Below are positions 44,034 through 46,192 of a stretch of 64,000 bases of DNA, in pieces. Every line of letters begins with the position of its first letter. The stretch's first letter is position 1. The position numbers are program-made. Source of the stretch: Octopus sinensis (taxonomy: Eukaryota); NCBI RefSeq assembly GCF_006345805.1, contig NC_042997.1, positions 15,934,001 through 15,998,000 on the forward strand, in the 5' to 3' direction.

Positions 44034-44071
<38 letters not shown>

Positions 44072-46119
44072 GAAAATAAAATAACTAAGTCTCTCTAAAA
44101 GAGACAGCGGCAGCGTTCCCGGAAAATAATAGTTATCGCCATACTAATATGGCATTCTTATAAAAATAAGAAAAAAGCGTCCGCTATTAGCTCCATGAGG
44201 CCATCGCCTTAAGTTAGCTATTGATACACAAACTGTATCCATATAACCTTCGAACAAGGGAGGTCAGTCGCCCACACTACTTGACCGGCTACAGAGACGC
44301 GTTTCGGGGTATTGCCCCTTTTCAATGCAGCGTCGCCAGCCAGTAGGTGTCGCTTCCGACAATCTCTGTTCGATGGTTTTATTTACCTAGTTTCGTGGAA
44401 TACATCCACTTGTTTTCAATAATAGAAATATTAAAATAACTAAGTCTCTCTAAAAGAGAACAGCGGCAGCGTTCCCGGAAAATAATAGTTATCGCCATAC
44501 TAATATGGTTCTTATAAAAATAAGAAAAAAGCTGTCCGCTTATTAGCTCCATGAGGCCATCGCCTTAAGTTAGCTATTGATACACAAACTGTATCCATAT
44601 AACCTTCGAACAAGGGAGGTCAGTCGCTCCCACTTACTTGACCGGCAGCTACAGACGCGTTTCGGTATTGCCCCTTTTCAATGCAGCGTAGCCAGCCAGT
44701 AGGTGTCGCTTCCGACAATCTCTGTTCGATGGTTTTATTTACCTAGTTTCAGTGGAATACATCCACTTGTTTTAATAATAGAAATATTAAAATAACTAAG
44801 TCTCTCTAAAAGAGAACAGCGGCAGCGTTCCCGAAAATAATAGTTATCGCCATACTAATATGGCATTCTTAAAAAATAATAAAAAAGCTGTCCGCTTATT
44901 AGCTCCATGAGGCCATCGCCTTAAGTTAGCTATTTGATACACAAACATATTCTTATAATGTTTTCAGCATCAGAAAACAATGAACGGTAACTGGAGAAAG
45001 CACTCAATGTATAGTGTAGCGTCAAATATTTATATCCGGGGAAAACGTGAGTTGGCTGTTACTTGAAAGATTCGCTGAATCAGGCAGTAAGCTGATATAC
45101 AAATATATTTGAAAACAAGTGGATGTATTCCACTGAAACTAGGTAAATAAAACCATCGAACAGAGATTGTCGGAAGCGACACCTACTGGCTGGCTACGCT
45201 GCATTGAAAAGGGGCAATACCCCGAAACGCGTCTGTAGCTGCCGGTCAAGTAGTGTGGAGCGACTGACCTCCCTTGTTCGAAGGTTATATGGATACAGTT
45301 TGTGTATCAAATAGCTAACTTAAGGCGATGGCCTCATGGAGCTAATAAGCGACAGCTTTTTTCTTATTTTTATAAGAATGCCATATTAGTATGGCGATAA
45401 CTATTATTTTCCGGGAACGCTGCCGCTGTTCTCTTTTAGAGAGACTTAGTTATTTTAATATTTCTATTATTGAAAACAAGTGGATGTATTCCACTGAACT
45501 AGGTAAATAAAACCATCGAACAGATTGTCGGAAGCGACACTACTGGCTGGCTACGCTGCATTGAAAAGGGGCAATACCCCGAACGCGTCTGTAGCTGCCG
45601 GTCAAGTAGTGTGGAGCGACTGACCTCCCTTGTTCGAAGGTTATATGGATACAGTTTGTGTATCAAATAGCTAACTTAAGGCGATGGCCTCATGGAGCTA
45701 ATAAGCGGACAGCTTTTTTCTTATTTTTATAAGAATGCCATATTAGTATGGCGATAACTATTATTTTCCGGGAACGCGGCCGCTGTTCTCTTTAGAAGAG
45801 ACTTAGTTATTTTAATATTTCTATTATTGAAACAAGGGATGTATTCCATGAAACTAGGTAAATAAACCCATCGAACAGAGATTGTCGGAAGCGACACCTA
45901 CTGCTGGCTACGCTGCATTGAAAAGGGGCAATACCCCGAAACGCGTCTGTAGCTGCCGGTCAGTAGTGTGGAGCGACTGACCTCCCTTGTTCGAAATTAT
46001 ATGGATACAGTTTGTGTATCAAATAGCTAACTTAAGGCGATGCCTCATGGAGCTATAAGCGGACAGCTTTTTTCTTATTTTTATAAGAATGCCATATTAG
46101 TATGGCGATACTATTATTT

Positions 46120-46192
<73 letters not shown>

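What the first reader, a model, noticed from the sequence alone, without database searches (positions are those of the whole stretch)
44068..46120. 2-kb palindrome of ~360-bp hammerhead-bearing repeats: candidate retrozyme / circular RNA system
Seen: two tandem arrays of one ~360-bp non-coding unit face outward from a 162-bp spacer, all inside a (TA)n tract; five units carry a minimal type I hammerhead (two perfect, three with 1-2 nt indels). Known: minimal hammerheads with a palindromic stem III mark Penelope pLTRs and are proposed to cleave as dimers; tandem 170-400 nt hammerhead repeats in metazoans (non-LTR retrozymes) give monomeric linear and circular RNAs; Penelope copies often have an inverted 5' pLTR. 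Inference: because of the palindrome, read-through in either direction makes a sense multimer that could self-process into ~360-nt monomers, while the full transcript could fold into ~880 bp of dsRNA that masks the ribozymes.
Basis: partly seen in the sequence, partly recalled or inferred. Interest (0 to 1): 0.88.

Follow-up and report, generated by a model that had tools for sequence, protein, structure and literature searches.

The report
Hammerhead retrozyme repeats in TA microsatellite
Two back-to-back arrays of a ~360-base non-coding repeat carrying a self-cleaving-RNA (hammerhead) motif look like a fairly ordinary new member of the known animal "retrozyme" family of parasitic retroelements, and their layout fits the way Penelope-like elements insert.

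Summary
A 2.5-unit array (44066-44946, sense on the minus strand) and a 2.8-unit array (45109-46120, plus strand) of a 356-358-nt unit face outward from a unique 162-bp spacer. (TA)n lies on both sides.

Each unit boundary carries a type I hammerhead: helix I 6 bp, helix II 4 bp, palindromic ACGCGU helix III. Two of five are intact. "Perfect" overstates it: all five have U3/A8 in place of the canonical C3/G8, a covariation already reported in Penelope-like element hammerheads. No Rfam hammerhead model matches.

My descriptor gives 0.01 chance hits per shuffled window. The monomer folds far better than shuffles (z -4.9 to -5.8).

It also sits in (TA)n, and its 3' ends fall at the same two CTATTAT sites.

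Best reading: a non-autonomous animal non-LTR retrozyme, integrated by reverse transcription primed from both strands of the target, as Penelope-like elements do. On this reading the palindrome is an insertion scar, not a regulatory device.

No RNA, cleavage or genome-wide data could be obtained. This is a new member of a known kind, of moderate interest.

The parts
43982..44068 (.). (TA)n tract, left half of the interrupted microsatellite target
   Evidence: TRF period 2, 45 copies
44066..44946 (-). Left array, 2.5 units, hammerhead-sense on the minus strand. The sense 3' end is at the outer (left) edge and stops at the second CTATTAT site of the unit (about unit position 238). The inner end is 5'-truncated at unit position about 65.
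44648..44687 (-). Hammerhead D (L1>L2 junction). C17 is the complement of 44654. Helix II lacks 2 C.
44290..44331 (-). Hammerhead E (L2>L3 junction). C17 is the complement of 44296. The core is intact, but 2 nt are inserted between the cleavage site and the helix I 3' strand.
   Evidence: not found by the descriptor
44947..45108 (.). 162-bp spacer (filler) between the arms. Unique in the window and of unknown origin.
   Evidence: Likeness to the unit is not significant (92 of 200 shuffles as good; 21 of 300).
45109..46120 (+). Right array, 2.8 units, hammerhead-sense on the plus strand. It starts at unit position about 239. The sense 3' end is at the outer (right) edge, in the first CTATTAT site (about unit position 178).
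45198..45239 (+). Hammerhead A, intact. Helix I 45198-45203 / 45234-45239; U3 at 45204; cleavage after C 45233.
45555..45595 (+). Hammerhead B. One A of the GAAA box is missing. Cleavage site would be after 45589.
45912..45953 (+). Hammerhead C, intact. Cleavage after C 45947.
46120..46170 (.). (TA)n tract, right half of the interrupted target
   Evidence: TRF period 2, 26 copies
48119..48149 (-). Second insertion, inverted arm: unit positions 208-238, 31 of 31 nt identical to unit R3. Its outer end is the same ...TTTCTATTAT|(AT)n junction as in the main locus.
48149..48308 (+). Second insertion, direct arm: unit positions 13-172, 99.4% identical to unit R3, no hammerhead. Its outer end lies in the first CTATTAT site. 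It joins the inverted arm with 1-2 nt of microhomology and is flanked by (TA)n on both sides.

Best explanation
The repeat is a non-coding, non-autonomous retroelement of the animal 'non-LTR retrozyme' kind.

Inferred life cycle. A multimeric sense transcript carries one type I hammerhead per unit. The hammerhead has almost no helix III of its own, because ACGCGU would leave a 2-nt loop. Two neighbouring copies therefore pair their palindromic ACGCGU segments into a 6-bp helix III (a double hammerhead) and cut after GUC. This gives ~360-nt monomers that fold into a strongly paired structure and can be ligated into circles.

Inferred integration. The enzyme would be that of a Penelope-like element (PLE) encoded elsewhere in the genome. 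A (TA)n tract is cut on both strands. Each 3' end primes cDNA synthesis at one of two CUAUUAU sites lying 63 nt apart in the RNA. Synthesis then runs for more than one unit length along a multimeric or circular template. The two cDNAs are joined in the middle. The result is two outward-facing, 5'-truncated arms, which is the palindrome.

Shown: the anatomy, the motif, the fold statistics, the two insertions, their targets and their ends.
Inferred: cleavage, circles, the enzyme, the order of events.
For: Motif.
- Helix I 6 bp, then an internal loop and a 5-bp closing stem. Helix II is 4 bp (G10.1-C11.1) with a 5-nt loop. GAAA follows, then ACGCGU and C17.
- There are only 2 descriptor hits in 64 kb on both strands, both of them here, against 0.01 per shuffle.
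- U3 and A8 can pair as C3-G8 does. This U3-A8 covariation is reported for about 1,300 PLE hammerheads of Schistosoma mansoni (PMC4209133, text read).
- In the anole PLE, a C3G/G8C double mutant partly restores cleavage (PMC11167929).
- A cofold of two copies gives -47.7 kcal/mol against 2 x -20.8, with an intermolecular ACGCGU helix.

Family features.
- Unit 356-358 nt (consensus 361), G+C 0.41-0.42, no stop-free frame above 58 aa in the right array.
- Circular minimum free energy is -110.6 and -114.0 kcal/mol, z -4.9 and -5.8 against 100 shuffles each. Helices I and II of the hammerhead are kept in that fold.
- Mussel retrozyme repeats are ~350-390 bp (PMC7229834).

Mobility.
- A second insertion at 48119-48308 is 99-100% identical to the unit, while its flanking repeats are only 79-80% alike.
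- 2 of 2 insertions lie inside (TA)n.
- 2 of 2 have an inverted arm plus a direct arm, with 3' ends outward and variable 5' truncations at unit positions about 65, 239, 208 and 13.
- 4 of 4 outer ends fall in the only two CTATTAT sites of the unit, at positions about 169 and 232.

PLE parallels.
- PLE insertions form partial tandems, often with an adjacent inverted 5'-truncated copy. They have a tail at one end and a microsatellite bias that includes (TA)n (PMC8557442, passages).
- The anole PLE protein cleaves and extends both strands of AT-rich DNA and starts reverse transcription at two internal sites that define the tail (PMC11167929).
- Vertebrate retrozymes group with PLE pLTRs (preprint 10.64898/2026.07.22.740005).
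Against: - No Rfam hammerhead model matches, even at E<=10 on 66 nt.
- The core departs from the canonical sequence at two positions, and no activity data exist for this sequence.
- The copies are about 95-100% alike, so there is no covariation support. No relatives could be fetched, because no eukaryotic DNA collection was open.
- 0 of 30 ORFs tested had a reverse transcriptase or GIY-YIG match. These were 23 of the 42 ORFs of >=120 aa plus 7 shorter ones near the loci. The partner element is therefore hypothetical.
- There are only two loci, both in one 64-kb window.
- The distance between the two 3' sites is 63 nt, against the 30-40 nt given for PLE tails.
- The ends here share TA microhomology with the target, whereas the anole PLE starts at a site not homologous to the target.
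- The clade named for (TA)n bias in the passage I saw (Naiad) lacks canonical hammerheads.
- The 162-bp spacer is unexplained.
- One deletion is shared by two left-arm units only, which does not fit a single circular template.
- PLE min-hammerheads cleave poorly in vitro.
Confidence: 0.65

Rival explanations
1. Dead satellite or minisatellite. The hammerhead-like motif is inactive or only a relic. The arrays grew by unequal crossing-over and were inverted by a DNA-level rearrangement. No RNA circles or retrotransposition are involved today.
For: - The non-canonical U3/A8 core and the Rfam silence.
- 3 of 5 motifs are damaged as assembled.
- The 2026 preprint itself proposes local amplification of arrays after insertion.
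- PLE min-hammerheads show low in vitro activity.
Against: - A second, 99-100% identical insertion in another (TA)n has the same two 3' ends and the same inverted layout. This is hard to obtain by DNA rearrangement.
- U3/A8 is a compensated pair, not random decay.
- The monomer fold has z -4.9 to -5.8.
- The damage consists of indels that may be consensus errors.
Confidence: 0.13
2. Remnant pseudo-LTR arrays of an autonomous Penelope-like element whose ORF never was copied (5' truncation) or was lost. On this reading the unit is a PLE terminal repeat, not a separate non-autonomous family.
For: - The layout of tandem copies plus an inverted 5'-truncated copy is the described PLE layout.
- Retrozymes and pLTRs are sequence relatives in Xenopus.
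Against: - No reverse transcriptase or endonuclease remnant in 30 ORFs tested.
- Uninterrupted runs of 2.5 and 2.8 units, plus a strongly self-paired ~360-nt monomer, fit the retrozyme description.
- The hammerhead has the canonical type I shape, not the long-helix-II min-HHR typical of metazoan pLTRs.
Confidence: 0.12
3. The palindrome is a working device: read-through from either side yields sense multimers, while the full transcript folds into a long hairpin that masks the ribozymes or feeds small-RNA silencing of the family.
For: About 800 bp of 95% complementary sequence with a 351-nt loop is really there. Any read-through transcript would contain an antisense arm followed by a sense arm.
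Against: - No expression or small-RNA data.
- The same inverted layout recurs at the second locus with arms of about 31 and 160 nt and no hammerhead, so the inversion comes with insertion, not with function.
- The arms point outward, so transcription from within a unit would not make the hairpin.
Confidence: 0.05
4. Assembly artefact. The palindrome is a foldback or chimeric long-read product and not present in the genome.
For: - Unit differences are dominated by private 1-2-nt deletions in short homopolymer runs: 29 deletions and 2 insertions in 2110 aligned nt. This looks like consensus error.
- Inverted duplicates are known to give missed base calls in nanopore data (PMC7229812, search listing and start of abstract only).
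- PLE-type structures are said to trouble assemblies.
Against: - The arms are not mirror images. They are 881 and 1012 bp long, the inner ends lie at unit positions about 65 and 239, and the outer ends at about 238 and 178.
- The spacer is unique and non-palindromic.
- The differences are not mirrored between arms.
- An independent small locus has the same design.
Confidence: 0.05

Closest known systems
Animal non-LTR retrozymes (Cervera and de la Pena 2020, PMC7229834), especially the mussel family of ~350-390-bp repeats
   Same: - Tandem units of similar size.
- One type I hammerhead per unit, with 6-bp helix I, 4-bp helix II and a tiny palindromic helix III.
- G+C about 0.41.
- No ORF, LTR, PBS or PPT.
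- A strongly self-paired monomer.
   Different: - The core has U3-A8 instead of C3-G8.
- The arrays are head-to-head inside (TA)n. The word 'inverted' does not occur in that paper's main text.
- Expression as circles is unknown here.
- No sequence comparison was possible, because figures and supplements are not held.
Penelope-like element insertions and their pLTR hammerheads (PMC4209133, PMC8557442, PMC11167929)
   Same: - Partial tandems with an adjacent inverted 5'-truncated copy.
- An extra tail at one end.
- AT-rich or (TA)n targets.
- Two internal reverse-transcription start sites.
- Both target strands extended.
- A palindromic 15.2-16.2 / loop 3.
- A U3-A8 variant known in Schistosoma PLEs, and paired hammerheads on opposite strands 100-700 bp apart there.
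   Different: - No RT/GIY-YIG ORF here.
- The hammerhead is not the min-HHR type (helix II of 6-8 bp, bulged base after A9, no loop 3).
- The 'tail' would be 63 nt rather than 30-40.
- The ends show TA microhomology with the target.
Classical satellite hammerheads (newt, schistosome, cave cricket repeats; cited in the introduction of PMC7229834)
   Same: Type I hammerhead in tandem genomic repeats. These are thought to act as double hammerheads (Forster et al. 1988 as cited in PMC4209133).
   Different: Those are now counted as retrozymes themselves. No sequence relation was tested.
L1 'twin priming' inversions (Ostertag and Kazazian 2001; recalled, not fetched)
   Same: The geometry matches: two cDNAs primed from the two strands of one target, 3' ends outward, and 5'-truncated ends joined with microhomology in the middle.
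   Different: It involves a different enzyme family (APE-type LINE). L1 is not multimeric and has a poly(A) end on one side only.
Plant LTR retrozymes (PMC4918200; search listing and abstract only)
   Same: Non-autonomous, hammerhead-processed and circRNA-forming retroelements.
   Different: They carry type III hammerheads in LTRs, have 600-1000-nt circles, G+C above 55%, PBS/PPT and 4-bp duplications, and are mobilised by LTR elements (legend of Figure 1).

Membership tests
Hammerhead ribozyme, type I | Three helices around the core, with helix I open, G10.1-C11.1, GAAA, and U16.1-H17 followed directly by helix I | tested here: met
   Met in 2 of 5 copies as assembled. The fold shows helix I and helix II. 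Helix III forms only between two copies.
Hammerhead ribozyme, type I | Canonical core sequence CUGANGA ... GAAA | tested here: inconclusive
   The core reads UUGAAAA ... GAAA in 5 of 5 copies. C3 and G8 are both changed, to a pair that can still form. The variant is known from PLE hammerheads (PMC4209133).
Hammerhead ribozyme, type I | Match to curated covariance models (Rfam hammerhead families) | tested here: not met
   No hammerhead family matched at gathering score on the window, nor at E<=10 on 3.2 kb or on 66 nt.
Hammerhead ribozyme, type I | Site-specific self-cleavage | not testable with these tools
   Needs in vitro transcription of monomer and dimer.
Animal non-LTR retrozyme | Short tandem repeats (about 170-400 bp, dimers to multimers), each with a type I hammerhead | tested here: met
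   Arrays of 2.5 and 2.8 units of 356-358 nt; 5 hammerhead sites.
Animal non-LTR retrozyme | Low G+C (<45-50%) and no LTR, PBS, PPT or coding capacity | tested here: met
   G+C 0.41-0.42. The longest stop-free frame in the right array is 58 aa. No Pfam hits in neighbouring ORFs. PBS and PPT were not searched for specifically.
Animal non-LTR retrozyme | Highly self-paired monomer RNA | tested here: met
   Circular MFE z -4.9 (R3) and -5.8 (L2) against 100 shuffles each; 64-66% of bases paired. This is a prediction only.
Animal non-LTR retrozyme | Expressed as unit-length linear and circular RNAs | not testable with these tools
   No transcriptome is available.
Animal non-LTR retrozyme | Co-occurrence with autonomous PLEs in the same genome | not testable with these tools
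   Only this window is held. 0 of 30 ORFs tested hit RT or GIY-YIG.
Penelope-like element (autonomous) | ORF with telomerase-like RT and GIY-YIG endonuclease between pLTRs | tested here: not met
   Nothing lies between or beside the arms. The spacer is 162 bp.
PLE-type insertion signature | Partial tandem plus adjacent inverted 5'-truncated copy, tail at one end, AT-rich or microsatellite target | tested here: met
   Seen at 2 of 2 loci, compared with the description in PMC8557442. The tail length differs: 63 nt against 30-40.
PLE min-HHR (Cervera and de la Pena 2014) | Long helix II (6-8 bp), short helix I (4-5 bp), unpaired base after A9, no helix III or loop 3 | tested here: not met
   Helix II is 4 bp, helix I is 6 bp, there is no extra base, and a CGCG insert is present. 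The shape is the 'canonical metazoan' one described.

The most novel reading that the evidence does not exclude
The two loci are single-step footprints of integration. A multimeric or circular retrozyme RNA was reverse-transcribed from both strands of a self-complementary (TA)n target, starting at two fixed CUAUUAU sites 63 nt apart.

If so, three things follow:
- retrozyme arrays are born multimeric and can be born as palindromes, rather than growing later by unequal crossing-over;
- this is direct sequence-level evidence that an invertebrate-type retrozyme uses the two-strand, internal-start mechanism so far shown in vitro for one lizard PLE only;
- a U3-A8 hammerhead of canonical type I shape would be a working ribozyme.
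Probability: 0.4. Interest if true: 0.55.

Novelty: new member of a known kind. Interest (0 to 1): 0.4.

Why it matters
Animal retrozymes are thought to be mobilised by Penelope-like elements. In the papers I read, the support for this is co-occurrence and sequence relatedness of retrozymes and pLTRs in vertebrates (preprint 10.64898/2026.07.22.740005). How the arrays arise is left open there.

This window holds a young family in which insertion junctions are still readable:
- the same two 3' ends at two loci;
- (TA)n targets;
- inverted arms.

A genome-wide survey of this one family could test whether retrozymes carry the PLE signature of two-strand priming and two internal start sites. It could also test whether arrays are inserted as multimers.

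The family also offers a natural U3-A8 core in an otherwise canonical type I hammerhead for kinetic comparison.

Otherwise the locus is an ordinary repeat with no sign of host function.

Tried and rejected
Rfam. A gathering-score search on the whole window gave 0 matches. An E<=10 search on 43500-46700 gave only microRNA-like hits in (TA)n/(TG)n and one other chance hit. An E<=10 search on 45185-45250 gave only a chance hit at E 4.3. No ribozyme of any class was found on either strand.

Other copies. BLASTN of the unit, the spacer and both flanks against the window found the second locus and nothing else.

Spacer. I compared it with the unit under two scoring schemes. Neither was significant.

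Coding capacity. Pfam on 30 ORFs gave no RT, endonuclease or any other domain. These were 23 of the 42 ORFs of >=120 aa plus 7 of 80-119 aa next to the loci. The single exception was a sub-threshold Zip hit over a (TG)n tract. The remaining 19 ORFs of >=120 aa were not tested; they mostly overlap tested ones, simple repeats or the 87-bp satellite. I did not scan a full six-frame translation of the window.

tRNA. ARAGORN found none.

Public collections. One scan of genome contigs (bacteria and archaea only) with the hammerhead pattern gave 0 hits.

Not checked. Copy number, other loci, a partner PLE and expression therefore all stayed unchecked. Supplements of PMC4209133 and PMC7229834 (alignments of hammerheads from many invertebrates) were closed and may already contain this family.

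Covariation tools (fold_alignment, the count of structure pairs) were not run, because the copies are near-identical and would say nothing.

Literature.
- A search for U3-A8 plus hammerhead returned 1 paper.
- A search for C3-G8/C3U/G8A returned 7. I opened none of them anew.
- A search for hammerhead ribozyme/retrozyme with octopus/cephalopod/squid listed only PMC8557442 as relevant among the 15 shown.
- A search for 'twin priming' with Penelope/retrozyme/hammerhead found 77 papers holding at least 2 terms. None of the 12 listed contains 'twin priming'.
- I therefore did not find inverted retrozyme arrays described, but these searches do not show that they are not in print.

Organism. It was not determined. 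The repeat content looks like an animal genome. A recollection that the SINE-like repeats resemble cephalopod ones is untested.

Rejected readings.
- A simple foldback artefact: the arms are asymmetric.
- A chance motif: shuffles.
- A protein-coding reading: stops in all frames.
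Full report
**What is there**

Between two halves of a (TA)n tract (43982-44068 and 46120-46170) lie two arrays of one non-coding unit:
- 44066-44946: period 356, 2.5 copies.
- 45109-46120: period 357, 2.8 copies.

The arrays are reverse complements of each other. 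The best register pairs 44123-44946 with 45298-46120 over 836 columns at 95.1% identity, leaving a 351-nt loop.

Between the arrays lies a 162-bp spacer (44947-45108). It is unique in the window and not significantly like the unit.

Cutting the arrays at the predicted cleavage sites gives units of 356, 358 and 358 nt, with a majority consensus of 361 nt. G+C is 0.41-0.42. No reading frame in the right array stays open beyond 58 codons.

**The hammerhead**

At each of the five unit junctions the sense strand reads as follows:
- a 5-bp closing stem and an internal loop;
- a 6-bp helix I;
- UUGAAAA;
- a 4-bp helix II (G10.1-C11.1) with a 5-nt loop;
- GAAA;
- CGCG;
- UC, the cleavage site;
- the helix I 3' strand.

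This is the shape that Cervera and de la Pena describe as the canonical metazoan type I hammerhead: helix I of 6 bp, helix II of 4 bp, and helix III of 1-2 bp capped by a small palindromic loop, thought to act as a dimer (PMC4209133, text read). It is not their Penelope 'min-HHR'.

A15.1 through U16.1 spell the palindrome ACGCGU. Two copies cofold with that 6-bp helix between them at -47.7 kcal/mol, against 2 x -20.8 for separate monomers.

In 5 of 5 copies, position 3 is U and position 8 is A, instead of C and G. Three points bear on this:
- The two changes together keep a Watson-Crick pair.
- The same U3-A8 covariation was reported for about 1,300 motifs of Schistosoma PLEs.
- A C3G/G8C double mutant partly restores cleavage in the anole PLE hammerhead (PMC11167929).

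Against the motif, no Rfam hammerhead model matches, even at E<=10 on the 66-nt motif alone.

My own descriptor allowed either core pair and required helix I of at least 5 bp, helix II of at least 3 bp, GAAA, a paired 15.2-16.2, and UH. It finds exactly two sites in the 64-kb window on both strands, both of them here: 45204-45233 and 45918-45947. It gave a mean of 0.01 hits per dinucleotide shuffle, with 3 of 300 shuffles holding one hit.

The three other copies carry indels:
- B: one A lost from GAAA.
- D: CC lost from helix II.
- E: 2 nt inserted after the cleavage site.

**Fold of the monomer**

As circles, unit R3 folds at -110.6 kcal/mol and unit L2 at -114.0 kcal/mol. The z-scores are -4.9 and -5.8 against 100 shuffles each. 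The antisense strand of R3 gives z -3.9. In these folds, helix I runs on into a long imperfect stem between the first ~55 nt and positions ~275-330, and helices I and II of the hammerhead are kept. This matches the 'highly self-paired' monomers of retrozymes (PMC7229834).

**A second locus**

- 48119-48149: minus orientation, unit positions 208-238, 31 of 31 nt identical.
- 48149-48308: plus orientation, unit positions 13-172, 99.4% identical.

The two pieces are joined directly with 1-2 nt of microhomology, and again lie inside (TA)n. This locus has no hammerhead.

The ~145-bp repeats that flank the loci are only 79-80% alike. The two loci are therefore independent and much younger than their surroundings.

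**The ends**

In sense orientation, both inverted arms end identically at ...TTTCTATTAT followed by (AT)n. The direct arms end at ...CTATTATTTT in the main locus and at ...AACTAT in the second locus.

CTATTAT occurs exactly twice in the unit, at about positions 169 and 232. So 4 of 4 outer ends fall in those two sites, 63 nt apart.

The inner ends vary: unit positions about 65 and 239 in the main locus, and 208 and 13 in the second.

The window holds 21 merged tracts of (TA)>=8. Both insertions (2 of 2) interrupt such tracts.

**How it most likely works**

Fixed 3' ends, variable 5' ends, a microsatellite target and sense 3' ends pointing outward on both sides are what target-primed reverse transcription from both strands of one break would leave. 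This is the geometry known as twin priming for L1 (recalled, not fetched).

For Penelope-like elements, the papers I read describe the following:
- partial tandems, often with an inverted 5'-truncated copy beside them; a 30-40-bp tail at one end; and a bias for microsatellites, including (TA)n (PMC8557442, passages);
- for the purified anole PLE protein, cleavage and extension of both strands of AT-rich DNA, and two internal start sites of reverse transcription that define the tail (PMC11167929).

Animal retrozymes are described as ~170-400-nt tandem repeats with type I hammerheads and low G+C, expressed as circles, with mussel repeats of 350-390 bp (PMC7229834). A 2026 preprint relates them to PLE pLTRs in vertebrates (10.64898/2026.07.22.740005).

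I therefore read the locus as a retrozyme-type element integrated by a PLE-type enzyme, and the palindrome as the scar of that event. Arms of more than one unit imply a multimeric or circular template. I cannot tell which, nor exclude later expansion.

**What does not fit or stays open**

- The spacer has no explanation.
- The 'tail' would be 63 nt, not 30-40.
- The ends overlap the target by TA microhomology, unlike the anole case.
- The (TA)n bias I saw stated in text concerns Naiads, which lack canonical hammerheads.
- No RT or endonuclease ORF was found in 30 ORFs tested.

The units of the main locus differ from their consensus mostly by private 1-2-nt deletions in short homopolymer runs: 29 deletions, 2 insertions, and 26 nominal substitutions in 2110 aligned nt. 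Many of the nominal substitutions are paired indels. By contrast:
- the second locus has one substitution and no indel in 190 nt;
- TRF reports 0% indels for the 87-bp, 190-bp, 251-bp and 150-bp arrays of the window.

This may be consensus error specific to an inverted repeat. Missed base calls at inverted duplicates are reported for nanopore data (PMC7229812, search listing and start of abstract only), but the platform here is unknown. If it is error, the three 'damaged' hammerheads may be intact in the animal. It may also be real variation.

One deletion is shared by two left-arm units only, which speaks against a single circular template.

**Artefact?**

A foldback chimera would give mirror-image arms. 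These arms differ in length (881 and 1012 bp), in inner phase (about 65 and 239) and in outer end (about 238 and 178). Their differences are not mirrored. The spacer is unique. A second locus repeats the design. I give the artefact reading a confidence of 0.05; only reads can settle it.

A transcript crossing the whole locus would hold an antisense arm, then a sense arm, and could fold into about 800 bp of imperfect duplex. That is a correct deduction. But no call here bears on whether such a transcript exists, and the recurrence of the inverted layout at a hammerhead-less mini-insertion argues that the layout is not selected for function.

**Novelty and verdict**

Every element of the picture is already described somewhere: retrozymes, double hammerheads, U3-A8, PLE tandem/inverted insertions, (TA)n targets, two start sites.

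What may be new is their combination in one young family with readable junctions, and a U3-A8 core in a canonical type I frame. In the papers I opened, I did not find inverted retrozyme arrays described. Those searches were narrow, and the supplements were closed.

Verdict: a real feature, a new member of a known kind, interest about 0.4. The organism, the copy number, the partner element and all RNA-level claims remain untested.

Noticed in passing
48119-48308: Second, small insertion of the same unit: an inverted piece of about 31 nt joined to a 160-nt direct piece. It lies inside another (TA)n tract and has the same outer ends as the main locus. No hammerhead.
   Followed up: yes
44066-46120 versus 48119-48308 and 60739-63470: Units of the palindromic locus differ almost only by private 1-2-nt deletions in short homopolymer runs. 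The second insertion and the other tandem arrays of the window show no such indels. This is either a possible consensus error at an inverted repeat or real slippage.
   Followed up: partly
46186-46330, 47943-48088, 48390-48530: A ~145-bp dispersed repeat (79-80% alike between copies) lies next to (TA)n/(GA)n tracts on the flanks of both insertions. It may be part of a larger (TA)n-tailed element that supplies the targets.
   Followed up: no
8935-9498, 10846-11598, 50992-51314, 52222-52883: One SINE-like family (with a tRNA T-arm-like box) is present as short tandem arrays with periods of 190, 251, 150 and 186 bp. The last array is on the opposite strand. ARAGORN and Rfam call no tRNA there.
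   Followed up: no
60739-64000: Satellite of 87-bp units (also scored at 174 and 261 bp), at least 31 copies, 94% matches, running off the window end. It produces spurious stop-free frames of up to 1121 codons.
   Followed up: no
13528-13788, 19654-20030, 31153-31304, 33089-33453: Long simple repeats: (TAA)87, (ACA)n, (TG)78 and (ACC)n. In addition there are 21 tracts of (TA)>=8 across the window. This is a very microsatellite-rich, apparently gene-poor stretch; 0 of 30 ORFs tested had a Pfam hit above its cut-off.
   Followed up: partly
44997-45070 (spacer positions 51-124): Weak colinear likeness of the spacer to unit positions about 141-210, the region holding the first 3'-end site. It is not significant (21 of 300 shuffles score as well). 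It could be a very diverged unit fragment or chance.
   Followed up: partly
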